Shown here: positions 2,565 to 9,579 of the stretch, piece after piece
Layout of the letters: the number at the start of each line of letters is the position of its first letter
Position numbering within the stretch: position 1 is the stretch's first letter
UHGV virus genome: UHGV-0335272
Source of the DNA: a virus
Direction: 5' to 3' (one strand)
DNA: 51,506 nucleotides
Translations under genes and position numbers: made by a program
Notes under the pieces: generated by a model
Told to the model about the DNA's origin: nothing
What the model saw: only the letters and a program-made list of their open reading frames with translations
Database searches by the model: none

Positions 2565-3161
2565 TCAGTGGGAGTGGTGATTGGAGTTTGCGCCATCAGA
2601 CAGCATGCTACCGGTGGCGTGGGCATTCCCTTCAATCTCGATATTGCCCTGAATGGTCGCGGTGGCACCTTCTCCGCCAGAGCCAGCCATGCCACCCTCG
2701 TAAGTGAGCTTACCCCTGACAAGCAGGTCCCCGGTTATTTCGGTCTGTGGCGCATCAATCGTGGCTTTCTGCGTTTTCACGAACACGTCAGCACTACACT
2801 CAATCACAAGATGCTCGATTCCACCCTTAATGGTGAGCGTATGGGTGCCCCGGTGGTAGCTGAACTCGGCCCCGTCGCTGAATGTTGTGCCGCGAACGCT
2901 CTTGTCGCTGAACGATGGTTTATCAACGTCGGAATAGACCGCGCCGAGGATCACGCCATCTTCGCCGTTTTCATCCAGCAGCACCTTGACCTGCTCCCCC
3001 ACATCAGGGAGCCAGTAATCTTTGTTGTTCTGGGTGTTGCGCTGCAGGACGTCCAGCCAGTTGGTGCGCATGTTGTCGCACTCGGGCAGCCGGACGCGGG
3101 CTTTCACGCCATCAGCATCAACGGCACTGACCGTACCGGTCTGCAGGGTTACGCCTGTCAT
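2565..3161 (-). CDS. Baseplate assembly/spike protein (gpV-like, Mu gp45-like)
   Basis: 198-aa ORF between hub and gpW-like genes. Confidence 0.7.
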   Translation of the reverse strand: MTGVTLQTGTVSAVDADGVKARVRLPECDNMRTNWLDVLQRNTQNNKDYWLPDVGEQVKVLLDENGEDGVILGAVYSDVDKPSFSDKSVRGTTFSDGAEFSYHRGTHTLTIKGGIEHLVIECSADVFVKTQKATIDAPQTEITGDLLVRGKLTYEGGMAGSGGEGATATIQGNIEIEGNAHATGSMLSDGANSNHHSH

Positions 3162-4327
3162 TTTTTCTTCTCCTTTATTACCGTGGATGTGCTGCCGTCT
3201 GGCTTGTAGACGGTGAGCGTCTGGGTCTTGCCGGTCTTATTGCCTTTCTTCGCCTTACCCCGCGTCACCGGCCCCCGCGCCACATCCAGCTCGGTCACGT
3301 AGCCGCTGCTGCGGTCAAGCGTATGGCGGGCAGTGGTTATCAGCCACGGCCCGGATAGCTGGCCAAAGCCTGACAGCTCAATTTTATTGCCTGCTGTTAG
3401 CTGGGATGCGCCCATCAGGGTCAGGGAACCGCTCTGCTGATATTCGTTGTGGCGGGCCAGTGCGGAATCAGCCTTAATGCGTGCGCTGTCCGGATCACTG
3501 ATGCGGCTGTTGACCTGAAGCCGGTCGGCGCTGGTGACCTTGCCGCCTTTGGTTTGCTTGCTGCTCTCGCTGGTCCCGCCGTCAGCCTCATACACAATCA
3601 GCTTTTTTGTGCTGCTCTTCTGGTGCTTGACCCTGGCGGATTTGTAGACCCGGTTGATGGTATCGCGAAGCGAGTAACGGGCCACGTCCTGCGGCTTCAG
3701 CTGACGCACCGGCTCCTGGCTGCGAAGCGTGGCCAGATGCGAAAATATCAGCTGGTCGCTGACAATCTTCACCGCATAGCCGTACTCGCTGGCGAGGCGG
3801 TGCAGAAAGGCCACGTCGGTCTCGGCGTACTGCGTCACCCGGTCAATTTTGATGACCTCGATGCTGCCGACCAGCTTCAGCTGATGCTTTTTGGCAATAC
3901 GCCCGGCGATGGCCGCTAGCGTTGTGCTCTCGAAGCCCCGGCTTGATTTCGTCCGTAGTGCGCTGTTGACCGAGGTGGCCACACCCCGGATGGATACAAC
4001 AGAGGCGGGCGAACTGACCTCTATCTCGTCGATAGAGAAGGTACCGCAGGACAGCAGTTTCTCGCCCTGGTAGCCCACCTTCAGTGTCAACGTGTCACCT
4101 TTACCCGGATACCATGCATCCAGCCAGCGACCATCGGTATCATCCAGCTCCACCTCGATGGTGTCGGACTCATTTTTGATGTTATCGCTGTACGTAATGC
4201 GGGTGACGTATGGGGTGATATCGCTGGTGATATTCTTTTTCAGGTACCACAGGGTGAACACCGGCGACAGCACGTCGCTGACGCCGGTCAGGGCAGACGA
4301 TACCTGCGAACTGCTTACCTCAGCCAT
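3158..4327 (-). CDS. Baseplate hub protein (P2 gpD / Mu P-like)
   Basis: 389-aa ORF with basic C-terminal tail, downstream of gpU/N-like gene. Confidence 0.75.
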   Translation of the reverse strand: MAEVSSSQVSSALTGVSDVLSPVFTLWYLKKNITSDITPYVTRITYSDNIKNESDTIEVELDDTDGRWLDAWYPGKGDTLTLKVGYQGEKLLSCGTFSIDEIEVSSPASVVSIRGVATSVNSALRTKSSRGFESTTLAAIAGRIAKKHQLKLVGSIEVIKIDRVTQYAETDVAFLHRLASEYGYAVKIVSDQLIFSHLATLRSQEPVRQLKPQDVARYSLRDTINRVYKSARVKHQKSSTKKLIVYEADGGTSESSKQTKGGKVTSADRLQVNSRISDPDSARIKADSALARHNEYQQSGSLTLMGASQLTAGNKIELSGFGQLSGPWLITTARHTLDRSSGYVTELDVARGPVTRGKAKKGNKTGKTQTLTVYKPDGSTSTVIKEKKK

Positions 4328-4527: not shown

Positions 4528-5411
4528 CAGACGCTCCTTGCCATTATTCTGGCTGCCATTGTGCTTAACCCCGGAGACATGCGGGTAAAAGTGGTGCTGG
4601 CGGAGTTCAGCTGACCGGAAACCGCATCCAGCGCCGCCGCGATATTGCTGCCGTCGACGCCGTTCAGCGCGGACTGTGCCTGCTGAACATACGAGGCGGC
4701 CTCACCGGTGGCCCGAGCCAGGCTGACAGCTTCCGGCATGGACTCTGCCAGCGCATTAAACGCCGGGATACTGCTCCCCAGTGAACCGGAGATGTTCCCC
4801 AGCCCGCTCATCAGCCCTGGTACACGGGTCAGCGCCACTGTCGGGTTATCCTTCATTTTCTGTGCAATCCGCACCGCGCTCATGGTGGTCTGGAGCACTG
4901 ACTGTGCCTGCTTCGCATAGTTGACGCCGTCCCGGACATACTGCGCCACGCCGGAAGGTGACGGAACCGCAGAAGATATCGCGCCTGTGCCCGGTACCTG
5001 TGCACGGATAGCGGGCGGCTTCAGAGGGTTTTTAGGGTCGCCGATGTACTCCCGGAGAGACGCGGTGGCATTGACGGCCAGCACGTTGCCGGTGCTGTCG
5101 GTCTGTTCACTGGTCGCGGTCACGTCGGTAATCACGAACCAGCCGCGATAGTCGCCGTTGCCAAAGACCAGCGCCAGCGCCTGATGAGCTTTCATCGCTG
5201 TTCTCAGGCGGGCCAGCTCGACGTCGGGCACACAATAATGCTGGTGAAAGACCAGGCTTATCTGGATTTCGTCCAGCTTGTCGCCAATGAACTGCAGGCC
5301 GGGCTTCCCTTCGATGCGGGCATGCTCGGCGTAATCGACGCCGAACGTCGCCTCGAAGCCGTCCCAGTAGGTAATCAGCTCAAACTCAATATCGCCCAGA
5401 ACTGCAAACAT
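4527..5411 (-). CDS. DNA circularization protein N / tail gpU-like (Mu gp43-like)
   Basis: 294-aa ORF immediately downstream of tape measure gene. Confidence 0.7.
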   Translation of the reverse strand: MFAVLGDIEFELITYWDGFEATFGVDYAEHARIEGKPGLQFIGDKLDEIQISLVFHQHYCVPDVELARLRTAMKAHQALALVFGNGDYRGWFVITDVTATSEQTDSTGNVLAVNATASLREYIGDPKNPLKPPAIRAQVPGTGAISSAVPSPSGVAQYVRDGVNYAKQAQSVLQTTMSAVRIAQKMKDNPTVALTRVPGLMSGLGNISGSLGSSIPAFNALAESMPEAVSLARATGEAASYVQQAQSALNGVDGSNIAAALDAVSGQLNSASTTFTRMSPGLSTMAARIMARSV

Positions 5412-7876
5412 CAGCTGTACCTCCTGCGCTGTTGCTGAGCCAGCAGACGCTCCAGCATTTTTTCCAGCTCGTGCACGCTCATATTCAGCGCACCGGTCAG
5501 CCCGGCTGGCGCTGCTGTCTCTTTGCCATTCAGGTAAAACTGAGGATTAAAGTCGACCTGAATACCACCAGACATTCCGCCACCGGATGCAGCTGCACCA
5601 CGGCCTGAATATCCCACAGCCATGATTTCTGGCGACGGGATACGGGGTACATCCGGTGTCATTTCTTCAGCCAGCCGCTGCCCGGCCAGCGCCGCAAGCG
5701 GAGTGGTGCGCTGCAGGCCGATGGCTGCTCCCTGTGCGATGTTGTCACCAAAGCCCATAAACACCCGGCTCGGTGAGTGAATGCCCAGTTTTTCTTTAAA
5801 CCAGCCGCCGACGCTGTCTCCCATGTCGGTGACGGTGGTTTTGAGCGAGTCCCATTTGTTTTTGATGCCGTTTATCAGCCCGTCGATAAGATGGCCACCG
5901 AAGTCAGTGAACTTCGCTGGCAGATCAACGCCGAGATATTTCAGCGCAGCCGCAAAGGCTTTGTAGAGCAGACCAACCGGCGACCAGTTCATCAGCAGCT
6001 TACCAATCCCCACGATACCGCCGTTAAACGCCGTTTTAATGTCTGCCCAGCGCTGTTTAAACCAGCCGCTGACCGCTCCCCAGTTGCGGTAAATAAGGTA
6101 AGCAGCCACAGCAACAGCGGTGATGACCAGACCGATAGGGTTCATCATCAGCGCCCGGCCAATCCAGAGAACTGCCCGTCCGACGAGCATAATGCCGCGA
6201 ACAAGACTGCCACCAAGTACACGCCCCAGCGTACCGGCCCCTCTGGCGACAGCGCTGAAGCCGGTCACTAACCAGCGGAGTTTGCCGCCTTCACCCAGTG
6301 CAAGGGTCAGACGAAGCCAGTTAGCTCGAAGCCTGACAACACTTCCCCATACGCTGGTAAATGGTGAGATAAGGAGATTCAGCCCCAGCTTGAGACCGAT
6401 GGTGGCCATCTTAAAGGCCAGTAATGCACCTACAACCTTAATAGTGCCGCTGACGAGCTGCGGGTTTGCCGCTATCCATTTGCCAACGCTGTTCATTAAG
6501 GGGATGAACGTTTCCCCCAACTGGATCAAAGCCGGGCGTAATGATTCTCCGATGCTAATGGCCGAGTCGTTAAAACCAATCTGGGTACTGCGCCAGCGTC
6601 CTTCGAGTGTGTCATTCTGTTTTGCTGCATCCTTGTCCAGGGTAGACATCGCAGAGGGAGTGTTCATTTCCTGTTTATTAGACTGGTACTTATCCCAGCC
6701 CTGGCGCATCGCCAGCAGATGGTTGACAGTCTGAATATCGGTGAACACTTCCGCCAGTCCAAAGGATTCCATCAACTTCTGCTGGCCTTCCTGATCGCCT
6801 CTTGATCCTGCAGCTTTCCATTGTTGTACGAATGCCTTGCCTTTACCGTCGATAAACCGGTTGGCAATCATCAGAGAGGCTTCATACTGAGAGAGTCCCT
6901 GGGCTACATAATTTTGCATTGACCCCTGATAGTCCACTCCGGCTTTGGCATATTTCTGAATGGTATCTCCGCGCCCCATCGCCGCCAGCCAGTTAGACAT
7001 ATTGGTGACTGCTTCCTCTGCAGAGCCGCTGCCTTTACCCACTTCCAGACTGGCGACAATCTGGGTTATGGCGTCTTTACCGTAAATACCACGGGCCGCG
7101 AAAGCTTTGGCCATACCGGGCAACGCTTTCGCCATATCCTTCAGTTCAAATGAGCCGAGCTTGGCCCCAGTTGCCGCAATCCCAAAAGCCTGCTCCAGCT
7201 CCTTCGCATCGGTAATTTTAAGCGCATCGCTGAAGGCATAGGTCATTTTGGCGAGGTCTGTCATATCCGCTTTGGTGGCTGTGGCTGCTTTGCCCAGCAT
7301 TCCGGCAAACTTTGCTGCCTGTTCCGGGTTCATACCATCAGCAACCAGTTGACCAACACCACCCAACAGAGACTCCTGCAGCTGGTTAACCCTGAGCGAT
7401 GCCTGACGAATAGCAGTACCGATTGCCTGCTCCTGACGTGCATCCAGATCGCCGGTCACGCTGATATCGCGAAGCTGGGACTCAAACGAGGCATATTGTT
7501 TGATTGAGGCCATAACTGGTGACCCCAGCGTTCTGCCTATGGCATAGGTTTCTGCCCCCTGCCCATAGAGCGCCATGCGGTTAGCTTTCTGCGCATCACT
7601 GGTGGCAGATACCGCCGACAGACGACGCTGCTGGCGCTCAACCTGTTCCATTGTTCGACCAACCCGCAACAGAGCATTGTTCAGGTTCTGCATGGAAGAT
7701 GTACCGAGGTGACCATAGCGGGCAATTTTCTGAGTTAAATTATCTTGCCGCTCCTGCAGACGGCGTGATGTATCGCCAAGGGAGTCGAGGGCGCGTCGGG
7801 TACCGCTGACGGCAGAACGGAAGCTGCTTCCGACAATCCCGCCAATAATGACGCCAACTGAAAATTCACTGGCCAC
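5411..7876 (-). CDS. Tail tape measure protein
   Basis: 821-aa ORF, A/G/L-rich with predicted coiled coil and hydrophobic C-terminal segments, downstream of tail chaperone. Confidence 0.85.
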   Translation of the reverse strand: MASEFSVGVIIGGIVGSSFRSAVSGTRRALDSLGDTSRRLQERQDNLTQKIARYGHLGTSSMQNLNNALLRVGRTMEQVERQQRRLSAVSATSDAQKANRMALYGQGAETYAIGRTLGSPVMASIKQYASFESQLRDISVTGDLDARQEQAIGTAIRQASLRVNQLQESLLGGVGQLVADGMNPEQAAKFAGMLGKAATATKADMTDLAKMTYAFSDALKITDAKELEQAFGIAATGAKLGSFELKDMAKALPGMAKAFAARGIYGKDAITQIVASLEVGKGSGSAEEAVTNMSNWLAAMGRGDTIQKYAKAGVDYQGSMQNYVAQGLSQYEASLMIANRFIDGKGKAFVQQWKAAGSRGDQEGQQKLMESFGLAEVFTDIQTVNHLLAMRQGWDKYQSNKQEMNTPSAMSTLDKDAAKQNDTLEGRWRSTQIGFNDSAISIGESLRPALIQLGETFIPLMNSVGKWIAANPQLVSGTIKVVGALLAFKMATIGLKLGLNLLISPFTSVWGSVVRLRANWLRLTLALGEGGKLRWLVTGFSAVARGAGTLGRVLGGSLVRGIMLVGRAVLWIGRALMMNPIGLVITAVAVAAYLIYRNWGAVSGWFKQRWADIKTAFNGGIVGIGKLLMNWSPVGLLYKAFAAALKYLGVDLPAKFTDFGGHLIDGLINGIKNKWDSLKTTVTDMGDSVGGWFKEKLGIHSPSRVFMGFGDNIAQGAAIGLQRTTPLAALAGQRLAEEMTPDVPRIPSPEIMAVGYSGRGAAASGGGMSGGIQVDFNPQFYLNGKETAAPAGLTGALNMSVHELEKMLERLLAQQQRRRYS

Positions 7877-8054
7877 GCTGGTTATCCTCTGAAAGCGAAA
7901 AAACGTAAGGGGAATATCGGAGAGGCATGCAGAACAGCCGCGAGTGGCGGCTGTCAGGTGATGAGGAGTTACTGATTGTCGCCGAACTCGCTTTTGATTT
8001 GCTCTTCAGCCTGCTCCAGCCACATCTCCAGATCGTCAGTATCGAGGGCATCAA
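7866..8054 (-). CDS. Small ORF between tail chaperone and tape measure; either frameshift extension of the chaperone or an independent 61-aa ORF
   Basis: Open in the -1 frame relative to the chaperone ORF for about 31 nt of overlap; GGGGGAG lies 4 nt upstream of an in-frame ATG; no canonical slippery heptamer seen. Confidence 0.3.
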   Translation of the reverse strand: MMPSILTIWRCGWSRLKSKSKASSATISNSSSPDSRHSRLFCMPLRYSPYVFSLSEDNQRGQ

Positions 8055-8071
8055 TCTCCCCCGGCTGAAAT

Positions 8072-8398
8072 CTAAACCACCTCGCCAGCAGTCCCTGTGC
8101 CTGCGTCAGCATCTTTGTCGCTCTTGCCCAACCCCGTGATTTGCTGAAATCGGGTCTGCAGCTCCAGATAATCGGCCAGGTCCATGTTGTCCATGTCCTC
8201 CGGGAGCAGGCCGGTACTGCGGGAAATCAGTGGTTCATCCCAGTCAGCCGGGTCTTTATGCGTTTTCTTGACCAGTTTGAGGTCTTTAACCGTCAGGCGC
8301 TTAAGGGTGAGTTGAGAAATGGAGTTACCTGCTGCCGTGGTGAAAGGGAACTGCAGGACAAAGATTTCTGCTTCTGTTTGGGTCTGTGACATGTTCAT
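8072..8398 (-). CDS. Tail assembly chaperone (P2 gpE-like)
   Basis: 108-aa acidic ORF upstream of tape measure; conserved position. Confidence 0.6.
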   Translation of the reverse strand: MNMSQTQTEAEIFVLQFPFTTAAGNSISQLTLKRLTVKDLKLVKKTHKDPADWDEPLISRSTGLLPEDMDNMDLADYLELQTRFQQITGLGKSDKDADAGTGTAGEVV

Positions 8399-8460: not shown

Positions 8461-8484
8461 AAGAAGAAAGGGGCCGAAGCCCCT
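8461..8484 (-). terminator. Putative intrinsic terminator inside tail operon
   Basis: Minus-strand GGGGC-TTCG-GCCCC hairpin followed by TTTCTTCTT, directly after the stop of ORF 8491..8772. Confidence 0.4.
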
Positions 8485-8490
8485 GTGATA

Positions 8491-8772
8491 TCAGTGAGTA
8501 CGAAACCCTTTGCAGTTGCGCAGAAAGGTAATGAGCATCGCTTTCCCTTCGGTTTTACCGATGCCGGTAAACCAGTGGTCAGGTGGCTCCCATGCCTCAA
8601 TCAGGTCAGCGAGCTTTCGTGCTTTAGAGCGTGTGCAGTCAATCGGGTCATTGGTTTTACGGGTATTAAAAAGGTTCTCCACCCCCGGAATATCGAGGAT
8701 GGTAAACCAGGTGCCATTCCCCATGCCAATCGAACCACAGTTCCCGCCTTTATCTTCGATCTCAACGGTCAT
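8491..8772 (-). CDS. Hypothetical protein (tail-region small ORF)
   Basis: 93-aa ORF overlapping upstream ORF by 11 nt, followed by hairpin terminator. Confidence 0.45.
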   Translation of the reverse strand: MTVEIEDKGGNCGSIGMGNGTWFTILDIPGVENLFNTRKTNDPIDCTRSKARKLADLIEAWEPPDHWFTGIGKTEGKAMLITFLRNCKGFRTH

Positions 8773-9055
8773 CGTGGTTCCCTGATGCCAGCTGGGACTT
8801 CAGCCTGTACCCCTCAAACTGCCACAGCGCTTCAGTCGCATTGTGCTGCGCTTTAGCGATGGCCACCTTCCTACCGGTCTCTTCATCGAACAACCCCGGA
8901 TGCGCCGTGGCGCTGAATCCACTGCTGACCATAAAGCCATCCGGCATCAGTGCGACAGCAATGGTCAGCGTGGTGCCCGGAAAGTGATGGGTCTGGTAAT
9001 TCAGCGACGCCACCAGGTCGTCTATCGTCTTGCGCTCAACTTTAGGTACCACCAT
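8762..9055 (-). CDS. Hypothetical protein (tail-region small ORF)
   Basis: 97-aa ORF starting 3 nt after tail tube stop. Confidence 0.5.
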   Translation of the reverse strand: MVVPKVERKTIDDLVASLNYQTHHFPGTTLTIAVALMPDGFMVSSGFSATAHPGLFDEETGRKVAIAKAQHNATEALWQFEGYRLKSQLASGNHDDR

Positions 9056-9057
9056 GA

Positions 9058-9579
9058 TTATCCCCCGATATTGATGCGATAGTCAGTCAACTGGTCAACG
9101 CCACCGACGCGGAAGATGTTGGCCAGATAGTCCAGCTCCAGCAGCTCTTCACCATCCAGTACCTGCTTGATGTATGTGCAGGTGAAGCTACTGGAGAACT
9201 CGGCATTCTCATGCTGCTTGAACGTCCCCAGCGGGTTCTTCTTGAACATGATCGTCAGGAAGGTGACCAGCGGGATTTCATCAATCAACCCCTGAGAGCT
9301 GTAGCGCTGAACACTGGAACGGCACTGCAGCGCCAGCGATTTATACGGGTTCGCGGCAGACAGCATCGCATCGCGGTAGAAGCTGTTCCACTTGATCTCT
9401 CCTTCCAGCTTGTCGAAGCCTGACGGGAGTTCCACCTTACCCACCATCCCCAGCGCTTTATGTTCCTGCATGGTCATCGACACGTCGGGGAGCTTGACCT
9501 CCTCGGCCCGGCCCAGCAGGTTAGCGCTATCCAGATAGATGTTGGCATTGGTGATGCGGTTGATCTCAATCTTTGCCAT
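9058..9579 (-). CDS. Tail tube protein
   Basis: 173-aa ORF directly downstream of sheath gene. Confidence 0.8.
   Translation of the reverse strand: MAKIEINRITNANIYLDSANLLGRAEEVKLPDVSMTMQEHKALGMVGKVELPSGFDKLEGEIKWNSFYRDAMLSAANPYKSLALQCRSSVQRYSSQGLIDEIPLVTFLTIMFKKNPLGTFKQHENAEFSSSFTCTYIKQVLDGEELLELDYLANIFRVGGVDQLTDYRINIGG

What the first reader, a model, noticed from the sequence alone, without database searches (positions are those of the whole stretch)
7866..8398. Possible -1 programmed frameshift or separate small gene between tail chaperone and tape measure
The ORF 7866..8054 is in the -1 frame relative to the chaperone ORF and is open through the last ~10 chaperone codons, the arrangement expected for chaperone frameshift products. 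However, no canonical X XXY YYZ slippery heptamer is visible in the overlap, and a GGGGGAG motif precedes an in-frame ATG, so independent initiation is equally plausible.
Basis: seen in the sequence. Interest (0 to 1): 0.35.

Follow-up and report, generated by a model that had tools for sequence, protein, structure and literature searches.

The report
Tail chaperone frameshift, other frame

Summary
All genes here are on the minus strand: tail tube (9058..9579), chaperone (8072..8398, Pfam Phage_TAC_7), tape measure (5411..7876).

It is in the -1 frame, stays open through about 11 chaperone codons, has no X_XXY_YYZ heptamer, and has GGGGGAG before an ATG. But it matches no protein family. It is interrupted or truncated in most relatives, and its codon third positions are the least variable columns, so it is not coding.

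The conserved downstream ORF is in the other frame (+1, equivalent to -2): open 7969..8226, with a first ATG at 8112.
- It hits phrog_8286 (E 1e-31).
- NCBI annotates its homologues in relatives as "GpE family phage tail protein".
- It aligns to the frameshift-encoded part of P2 gpE+E' (hhalign 92.5%, E 5e-7).
- It is present in 34 distinct related loci, where variation falls on its third codon positions.
- Most lineages have no start codon for it, so it is most likely made as a 142-aa fusion (143 aa if -2), as verified for Mu.

I could not pin down the slip site. It lies in the linker at about 8092..8122, where AAA_G (8116..8113) and GGG_A (8095..8092) are the only codons that allow +1 re-pairing.

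This is an ordinary new member of a known kind.

The parts
8072..8398 (-). Tail assembly chaperone ORF (frame 0), 108 aa, stop TAG at 8074..8072
   Evidence: Pfam PF10109 Phage_TAC_7, E 4e-19, 68.9 bits against a cut-off of 25. phrog_166 'tail protein', E 4e-29. Homologues are annotated 'phage tail assembly protein'.
7969..8226 (-). E'-like extension frame (+1, equivalent to -2, relative to the chaperone). It is open from 8226, has its first ATG at 8112, its conserved core LLARWFRFQPGEIDALDTDDLEMWLEQAEEQIK starts at 8091, and its stop TAA is at 7971..7969.
   Evidence: frames and coordinates. phrog_8286 E 1e-31. PF06528 E 0.006-0.025 for the window peptide, and 12 of 15 family peptides match at E<=0.1. 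hhalign against the P2 gpE' part gives prob 92.5%, E 4.9e-7. Homologues are named 'GpE family phage tail protein'. Variable columns fall on its third codon positions.
8092..8122 (-). Linker in which the change from frame 0 to the +1 frame must occur. It contains the only two homotriplet frame-0 codons with +1 re-pairing potential: AAA_G (K95, 8116..8113) and GGG_A (G102, 8095..8092).
   Evidence: In the window group, frame-0 synonymous variation runs up to codon K92. Variation on +1-frame third positions only starts at or before the codons for QAQGLL. Site assignment is inference. XXX P-site codons are the most shift-prone (bioRxiv 10.1101/2025.10.02.679949).
7866..8054 (-).
   Evidence: No family hit. 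Not conserved in length or sequence. Its 3' half lies in intergenic DNA with indels that are not multiples of three. Its third codon positions are the least variable columns.
8058..8062 (-). Run of five G inside the extension (CCG GGG GAG = P G E). It lies after the frame-0 stop in this window, so frame-0 ribosomes cannot reach it here.
   Evidence: It is an indel hot spot in database sequences: P0035/37/48/53/61, P0058/74/75/76 and L008.
7934..7954 (-). Conserved stem-loop ACAGCCGC-CACTC-GCGGCTGT between the extension's stop and the tape measure start
   Evidence: The stem is kept, the loop varies, and the stem sequence is different but still pairs in L009.
5411..7876 (-). Tape measure protein gene, GTG start at 7876 preceded by AGAGGA
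   Evidence: PF10145, E 4e-16. Homologues are annotated as tape measure. The start position is conserved.
9058..9579 (-). Tail tube protein gene (upstream context)
   Evidence: PF04985 Phage_tube, E 5e-54.

Best explanation
This is the chaperone/extension gene pair of a BcepMu-like (Mu/P2-type) contractile-tail prophage.

Most ribosomes translate the chaperone ORF 8398..8072 and stop at TAG. A minority change to the +1 frame within the low-complexity linker (about 8122..8092) and continue to TAA at 7971..7969. The product is a fusion of 142 aa (143 aa if the shift is -2): the chaperone domain joined to a P2 gpE'-like helical segment, LLARWFRFQPGEIDALDTDDLEMWLEQAEEQIK.

By analogy with lambda gpG/gpGT, P2 gpE/gpE+E' and Mu gp41/Mu_56, the chaperone part would coat the tape measure protein and the extension would recruit tail tube subunits.

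Shown here: the frame, homology, purifying selection and conservation of the +1 ORF, and the lack of a conserved start codon.

Inferred: that the product is a fusion, the direction of the shift (+1 is favoured because no -2 re-pairing site exists in this linker), the site (AAA_G at 8116..8113 or GGG_A at 8095..8092), and the function.
For: - Gene order is tube, two small ORFs, chaperone, extension, tape measure.
- The +1 ORF hits phrog_8286 at 1e-31. Homologues are named 'GpE family phage tail protein'. The family profile aligns to the frameshift-encoded part of P2 gpE+E' (prob 92.5%, E 4.9e-7).
- The +1 arrangement is present in 34 distinct loci from Escherichia, Klebsiella, Xenorhabdus, Lonsdalea, Brenneria, Symbiopectobacterium and a Burkholderiaceae MAG, plus BcepMu.
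- Variable columns switch from frame-0 third positions in the chaperone body (4/30/13 and 15/34/16 by +1-frame phase) to +1-frame third positions in the extension (4/3/18 and 16/13/30). TTTAGATTT versus TTCCGGTTC is four changes, all synonymous in the +1 frame and all non-synonymous in frame 0.
- Many lineages have no ATG/GTG/TTG in the +1 frame upstream of the conserved core. The ATGs that do exist sit at varying positions.
- The Mu record annotates a verified -2 shift into the same relative frame in the same Pfam family. P2 uses -1. The distant relative L028 carries the homologous extension in the -1 frame behind a lambda-type G_GGA_AAG heptamer, so in this family the extension is reached by recoding.
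- Reviews state that tailed phages use -1, -2 or +1 at this position (PMC5009743).
Against: - No slip motif is conserved across the family.
- Homotriplet codons are not enriched in the frame-0 phase of the linker (55/49/28).
- There is no hungry or stop codon after either candidate site.
- No conserved downstream RNA structure appeared in single-sequence folds, and there is no Rfam match.
- This window does have an ATG (8112) with a weak AAGAG 8 nt upstream, so separate initiation cannot be excluded here.
- No protein-level data exist.
Confidence: 0.7

Rival explanations
1. The +1-frame ORF is a separate small gene translated from its own ATG at 8112 (47 aa), as NCBI's annotation of relatives implies. 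No frameshift is involved.
For: ATG 8112 exists with an AAGAG 8 nt upstream. About 10 of 17 lineages have an ATG somewhere 6-13 codons before the conserved core, and Xenorhabdus has AAGGA 7 nt before its ATG. Gene callers annotate 40-73 aa proteins.
Against: The ATG position is not conserved. ATG is absent in L002, L005, L013-L018, L021-L023 and the Symbiopectobacterium loci. In an Asp/Gly/Ala-rich linker, frame-0 GAT followed by a G-initial codon produces an ATG by composition alone. In P2, Mu and L028 the homologous segment has no start and is reached only by recoding.
Confidence: 0.15
2. One reading: a -1 programmed frameshift from the chaperone into ORF 7866..8054.
For: The -1 frame is open through the last ~11 chaperone codons and reaches the tape measure start.
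Against: There is no slippery heptamer and no family hit. The ORF is interrupted or truncated in most relatives. Its third positions are the least variable columns. Its 3' half is indel-rich intergenic DNA that holds a conserved hairpin and the tape measure ribosome binding site. The peptide appears in databases only through indels at the G run.
Confidence: 0.02
3. One reading: 7866..8054 is an independent small gene starting at ATG 8051 after GGGGGAG.
For: There is a Shine-Dalgarno-like GGGGGAG 4 nt before the ATG.
Against: The GGGGGAGATTGATG bases are the codons P-G-E-I-D-A of the conserved +1-frame extension. The same non-conservation arguments apply as above.
Confidence: 0.03
4. An RF2-like +1 shift at the chaperone stop codon (GAG GUG GUU UAG A, with the Shine-Dalgarno-like GAGGUG just upstream).
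For: GAGGUGGU can pair with the 16S 3' end. A stop codon follows GUU in this window.
Against: The +1-frame coding signal (LLARWF) begins at least 4 codons upstream of the stop. The TAG is absent in related phages, which read GTT CCG GTT. The Arg codon inside the Shine-Dalgarno-like motif varies AGG/CGG/AGA, so the motif itself is not what is conserved. tRNA-Val re-pairs poorly on UUU (my knowledge).
Confidence: 0.05

Closest known systems
Phage Mu gp41 / Mu_56 tail assembly chaperone, verified -2 frameshift (Xu, Hendrix & Duda 2004, as annotated in AF083977)
   Same: Same Pfam chaperone family (Phage_TAC_7, 'E, or 41 or 14'). Same position between tube and tape measure. The extension lies in the same relative frame (+1, equivalent to -2).
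   Different: Mu slips on a run of five G (CGG_GGG_CGA), which allows perfect -2 re-pairing. The window's linker has no such run upstream of the conserved core, and its only G5 run lies after the frame-0 stop. The Mu extension aligns only loosely to this one.
Phage P2 gpE / gpE+E' (-1 frameshift on GGT TTT TTG)
   Same: The extension is homologous to the E' part: F/W-x-P-S/G-E-L/I ... L ... W ... A, with hhalign prob 92.5%. The gene order is the same.
   Different: P2 uses a -1 shift on a U-run heptamer. Here the extension is in the +1 frame and no heptamer exists.
Burkholderia phage BcepMu gp41/gp42/gp43
   Same: The closest named phage lineage (relative PhiKM is classified as Bcepmuvirus). 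gp42 lies in the +1 frame of gp41 and carries the homologous QPSEIAELDMDDYWHWV segment.
   Different: The GenBank record treats gp42 as the lambda-G analogue and gp43 as its slippage product. The comparison here indicates that gp41 plus gp42 is the chaperone/extension pair.
Lambda gpG / gpGT (-1 on G_GGA_AAG)
   Same: The functional paradigm: two products at a fixed ratio, neither present in virions (PMC5009743). A distant relative of this family (L028) uses exactly this heptamer.
   Different: Different direction of shift. No detectable sequence similarity to lambda G or T was tested or claimed.

Membership tests
Frameshifted tail assembly chaperone pair (lambda G/GT, P2 E/E+E', Mu gp41/Mu_56) | Located between the tail tube/major tail gene and the tape measure gene | tested here: met
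   Tube PF04985 at 9058..9579, chaperone at 8072..8398, tape measure PF10145 at 5411..7876. Relatives have the same order.
Frameshifted tail assembly chaperone pair (lambda G/GT, P2 E/E+E', Mu gp41/Mu_56) | A second ORF overlaps the 3' end of the chaperone ORF in another frame and lacks a conserved start of its own | tested here: met
   The +1 frame is open 8226..7969 and overlaps about 50 chaperone codons. There is no conserved ATG/GTG/TTG across lineages.
Frameshifted tail assembly chaperone pair (lambda G/GT, P2 E/E+E', Mu gp41/Mu_56) | A recognisable slippery site in the overlap | tested here: inconclusive
   There is no X_XXY_YYZ heptamer and no G5 run upstream of the core. Only AAA_G and GGG_A permit +1 re-pairing. 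No motif is universal across 27 distinct linkers.
Frameshifted tail assembly chaperone pair (lambda G/GT, P2 E/E+E', Mu gp41/Mu_56) | A fusion protein is made at a low fixed ratio and is needed for tail assembly | not testable with these tools
   This needs proteomics, reporters or genetics.
Pfam PF10109 Phage_TAC_7 | Score above the curated gathering cut-off | tested here: met
   68.9 bits against a cut-off of 25, E 4e-19.
Pfam PF06528 Phage_P2_GpE (the E' segment) | Score above the curated gathering cut-off | tested here: not met
   The window peptide scores 14.5-16.6 bits against a cut-off of 23.
Pfam PF06528 Phage_P2_GpE (the E' segment) | Homology to the P2 E' segment at the family/profile level | tested here: met
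   12 of 15 family peptides match at E<=0.1. The family profile against P2 E' gives prob 92.5%, E 4.9e-7 over 34 columns. NCBI names homologues 'GpE family'.
Mu-type -2 frameshift | A frame-0 codon preceded by bases that allow re-pairing two nucleotides back (run of five identical bases or c1c2c1c2c3) | tested here: not met
   There is none in 8092..8122. Relatives L013, L014 and L021 do have GGGGG, and L001-type loci have GGC_GCA.
RF2-type +1 frameshift at a stop codon | The shift codon lies immediately before the frame-0 stop, with an upstream Shine-Dalgarno-like stimulator conserved among relatives | tested here: not met
   The +1 coding signal starts upstream of the stop. The stop position and the Shine-Dalgarno-like motif are not conserved.

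The most novel reading that the evidence does not exclude
This widespread proteobacterial prophage family reaches its chaperone extension by a true +1 shift. The shift would have no stop or hungry codon and no single conserved site. Low-level slippage at any of several homotriplet codons (AAA, GGG, CCC), scattered through a permissive linker kept open in the +1 frame, would add up to the few percent of fusion protein needed. That would be a distributed shift zone rather than a discrete recoding signal, or else an unrecognised stimulator lies in the very conserved CTGCTGGCGAGGTGGTT block.
Probability: 0.2. Interest if true: 0.5.

Novelty: new member of a known kind. Interest (0 to 1): 0.22.

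Why it matters
The main value is correct annotation. The real extension should be annotated as a joined chaperone-extension CDS in the +1/-2 frame, and 7866..8054 should not be called a gene.

The same correction applies widely. Matches were found in 637 of 5,426 complete E. coli genomes, where the extension, if annotated, is a separate 'GpE family' gene. It also applies to the BcepMu reference record.

For recoding specialists, the family is a compact natural series. Homologous extensions are reached by -1 (P2, L028), by -2 (Mu) and by an as yet unmapped +1/-2 event. Mapping the site here would show how a non-canonical forward shift is specified.

Tried and rejected
- RF2-like shift at GUU_UAG: rejected because relatives lack the stop and the +1 coding signal starts upstream.
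- Shift at the GGGGG run 8062..8058: rejected for this window because frame 0 stops 10 nt earlier, and because LLARWFRFQ upstream of the run is under +1-frame selection. Database fusions at that run (P0035 and others, L008) look like indels or errors.
- Conserved slip motif: manual and scripted comparison of 27 distinct linkers found no universal site. Homotriplets are not enriched in the frame-0 phase.
- Conserved downstream RNA structure: single-sequence folds of six lineages were inconsistent, and there was no significant Rfam hit. No alignment fold was run.
- Solved structures: no PDB sequence match to the fusion.
- NCBIfam: no hit for any of the three peptides.
- Searches that failed: the search for related loci with alignments A2 and A3 failed for lack of a conserved stretch. 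P0089 found nothing in viral contigs. The genome-wide pattern scan returned mostly chance hits, with only 13 true loci. Xu et al. 2004 is not held in the library, so the Mu site was read from the GenBank record.
Full report
**What is at the locus.** All relevant genes are on the minus strand.
- 9058..9579 is a tail tube protein (PF04985, E 5e-54).
- 8072..8398 is a 108-aa tail assembly chaperone (PF10109 Phage_TAC_7, E 4e-19; phrog_166).
- 5411..7876 is the tape measure protein (PF10145). It starts at GTG 7876, behind AGAGGA.
- Related E. coli prophages and the phages PhiKM (classified as Bcepmuvirus), KP12 and Phi06_2974 B have the same order.

**Check of the observation.**
- ORF 7866..8054 is in the -1 frame of the chaperone.
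- That frame is open from 8105, about 11 codons before the chaperone stop TAG at 8074..8072.
- There is no X_XXY_YYZ heptamer in the overlap.
- GGGGGAG precedes an in-frame ATG at 8051.

An ORF of this size is unremarkable. The same 7.5 kb contains 84 mechanical ORFs of at least 30 aa, including non-genic ones of 164-266 aa.

**The third frame.** The +1 frame (equivalent to -2) is open from 8226 to TAA at 7971..7969, so it overlaps about 50 chaperone codons. It encodes ...KMLTQAQGLLARWFRFQPGEIDALDTDDLEMWLEQAEEQIKSEFGDNQ.
- This peptide hits phrog_8286 at E 1e-31. It hits PF06528 (Phage P2 GpE) only weakly, below the curated cut-off.
- The -1 peptide hits nothing in Pfam, PHROGs or NCBIfam.
- In RefSeq E. 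coli genomes, the equivalent +1 ORF is annotated 'GpE family phage tail protein'. Its database homologues carry the same name.
- A profile of the family's extension peptides aligns to the frameshift-encoded part of P2 gpE+E' with probability 92.5% and E 4.9e-7.
- 12 of 15 extension peptides tested (13 from this family, plus P2 and Mu) match PF06528 at E<=0.1.

**Comparative evidence for the +1 frame.** I collected relatives from several sources:
- annotated phage and E. coli records (L001-L003);
- viral contigs (L004-L030);
- a genome-wide pattern scan (13 true loci from Xenorhabdus, Lonsdalea, Brenneria, Symbiopectobacterium, a Burkholderiaceae MAG and others);
- BcepMu itself.

In 34 distinct loci the conserved segment LLARWFRFQP(S/G)EI(D/E)...W...QIK is in the +1 frame of the chaperone.

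The phase of variable alignment columns switches exactly as expected. Counts are given by +1-frame codon position 1/2/3.

| Region | Window group | L013 group | Dominant position |
|---|---|---|---|
| Chaperone body | 4/30/13 | 15/34/16 | frame-0 third positions |
| Extension | 4/3/18 | 16/13/30 | +1-frame third positions |

A clear single case is TTTAGATTT in this window against TTCCGGTTC in PhiKM-type phages. The two differ at four bases. All four changes are synonymous in the +1 frame (F-R-F) and non-synonymous in frame 0, where they turn the stop TAG into CCG. The Leu, Ala and Arg codons before the Trp also vary only synonymously in the +1 frame (CTG/CTA/CTC; AGG/CGG/AGA).

**Evidence against the -1 ORF.**
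- The third positions of the -1 frame are the least variable columns.
- The ORF keeps its length only in the closest relatives. It is shorter in L002, L005 and L009. It is cut by a stop about 70 nt before the extension's stop in most of the more distant relatives (L013-L022, L024-L027).
- Its 3' half (7866..7968) is intergenic DNA. That stretch has indels that are not multiples of three, a conserved hairpin and the tape measure ribosome binding site.
- The peptide occurs in protein databases only in entries whose sequence is shifted by an indel at the G run (P0058, P0074-P0076).

**Fusion or separate gene.** This window has an ATG at 8112 with a weak AAGAG 8 nt upstream, so a separate 47-aa product cannot be excluded here. 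Several points argue against it as the general mechanism.
- Start codons are not conserved. L002, L005, L013-L018, L021-L023 and the Symbiopectobacterium loci have no ATG upstream of the core.
- Where an ATG exists, its position ranges from 6 to 13 codons before the Trp.
- In an Asp/Gly/Ala-rich linker, a frame-0 GAT followed by a G-initial codon yields an ATG by composition alone.
- In every characterised relative the homologous segment is reached only by recoding:
  - P2 uses -1 at GGT TTT TTG.
  - Mu uses -2, annotated as verified, on CGG_GGG_CGA, into the same relative frame as here.
  - The distant relative L028 has the homologous LAWWFGWSPTELMELDLEDIPNWVEQ in the -1 frame, immediately behind a lambda-type G_GGA_AAG heptamer and with no start codon.
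- Reviews state that tailed phages use -1, -2 or +1 at this position (PMC5009743; PMC2628397).

I therefore put 0.7 on a fusion made by a forward (+1) or -2 shift, and 0.15 on independent initiation.

**Where the shift occurs.**
- In the window group, frame-0 synonymous changes continue through K92 (AAG/AAA).
- Variation restricted to +1-frame third positions is visible from the QAQGLL codons onward. The columns in between vary at all positions.
- This places the shift in about 8122..8092.
- In that stretch there is no sequence allowing -2 re-pairing. Only two codons allow perfect +1 re-pairing of the P-site tRNA: AAA_G (K95, 8116..8113) and GGG_A (G102, 8095..8092).
- Either site gives a 142-aa product.
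- Weak conservation of the +1 peptide K-x-L-x-Q-A-Q-G-L-L across enterobacterial lineages slightly favours the upstream AAA_G region.
- No motif is universal across the family. All 27 distinct linkers have at least one frame-0 homotriplet, but homotriplets are not enriched in that phase (55/49/28).
- The site is therefore unresolved.

I rejected an RF2-like shift at GUU_UAG_A and a shift at the downstream G5 run (8062..8058), for the reasons given under rivals. Single-sequence folds gave no consistent downstream structure, and Rfam gave nothing significant.

**Comparison with known systems.** This works like lambda G/GT, P2 E/E+E' and Mu gp41/Mu_56.
- Membership of the chaperone family (PF10109) is met.
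- Membership of PF06528 is not met at the curated threshold for this single peptide, but homology is supported at profile level.
- It is not a -1 heptamer system, and it lacks Mu's G5 slip site.
- The closest named lineage is BcepMu. Its GenBank record assigns the G/T roles to gp42/gp43. The comparison here indicates that gp41/gp42 is the pair.

**Verdict.** This is an ordinary, widely distributed feature: a new member of a known kind. The one open point of modest interest is the unmapped, non-canonical forward shift site.

Noticed in passing
window 7934..7954 (-): A stem-loop of 8-9 bp (ACAGCCGC-CACTC-GCGGCTGT, followed by TCTGC) sits just after the extension's stop and before the tape measure start. 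Among enterobacterial relatives the stem is kept while the loop varies. L009 has a different stem sequence that still pairs. It could be a weak attenuator or an mRNA-stabilising hairpin.
   Followed up: partly
window 8469..8484 (-): A strong terminator-like hairpin (AGGGGCTTCGGCCCCT + TTCTTCTT) lies between the upstream small ORF 8491..8772 and the chaperone start. It falls in the middle of what should be one late tail operon.
   Followed up: no
window 8762..9055 (-) and 8491..8772 (-): Two small ORFs lie between the tube and chaperone genes: a Phage_gp49_66 family protein (PF13876, E 8e-13) and a phrog_1239 protein of unknown function. E. coli relative L001 has only one 93-aa ORF there, so the gp49-like gene may be an insertion.
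   Followed up: partly
window 8058..8062 (-); proteins P0035, P0037, P0048, P0053, P0058, P0061, P0074-P0076; locus L008: The CCGGGGGAG run inside the extension is a hot spot of single-base length differences in database sequences. These give in-frame chaperone-extension fusions or reads into the -1 frame. They are probably assembly errors or defective prophages. Real length variation was not excluded.
   Followed up: partly
L031 (BcepMu AY539836) 2603..3364: The reference BcepMu record labels gp42 as the lambda-G analogue and gp43 as its slippage product. gp42 is in the +1 frame of gp41 and is the homologue of the extension described here. gp43 is a long ORF in GC-rich DNA with no support from this comparison.
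   Followed up: partly
L028 1201..1600 and L029: AT-rich distant relatives (37% identity in the chaperone, where measured over its length in L028). In L028 the homologous extension lies in the -1 frame behind a lambda-type G_GGA_AAG heptamer; in L029 the same heptamer is present but its -1 ORF does not show the motif. So one protein family uses both backward and forward recoding.
   Followed up: partly
window 8072..8091 (-) and the same block in L013-L030: The block CTGCTGGCGAGGTGGTT(C/T)CGGTTTCAGCCGAG is nearly invariant at the nucleotide level across lineages whose chaperones are only 45-60% identical. Most of this fits dual coding (the frame-0 tail ...AGEVVPVSAE and the +1 LLARWFRFQPSE). 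This window truncates the frame-0 tail with TAG, so that tail is dispensable.
   Followed up: partly
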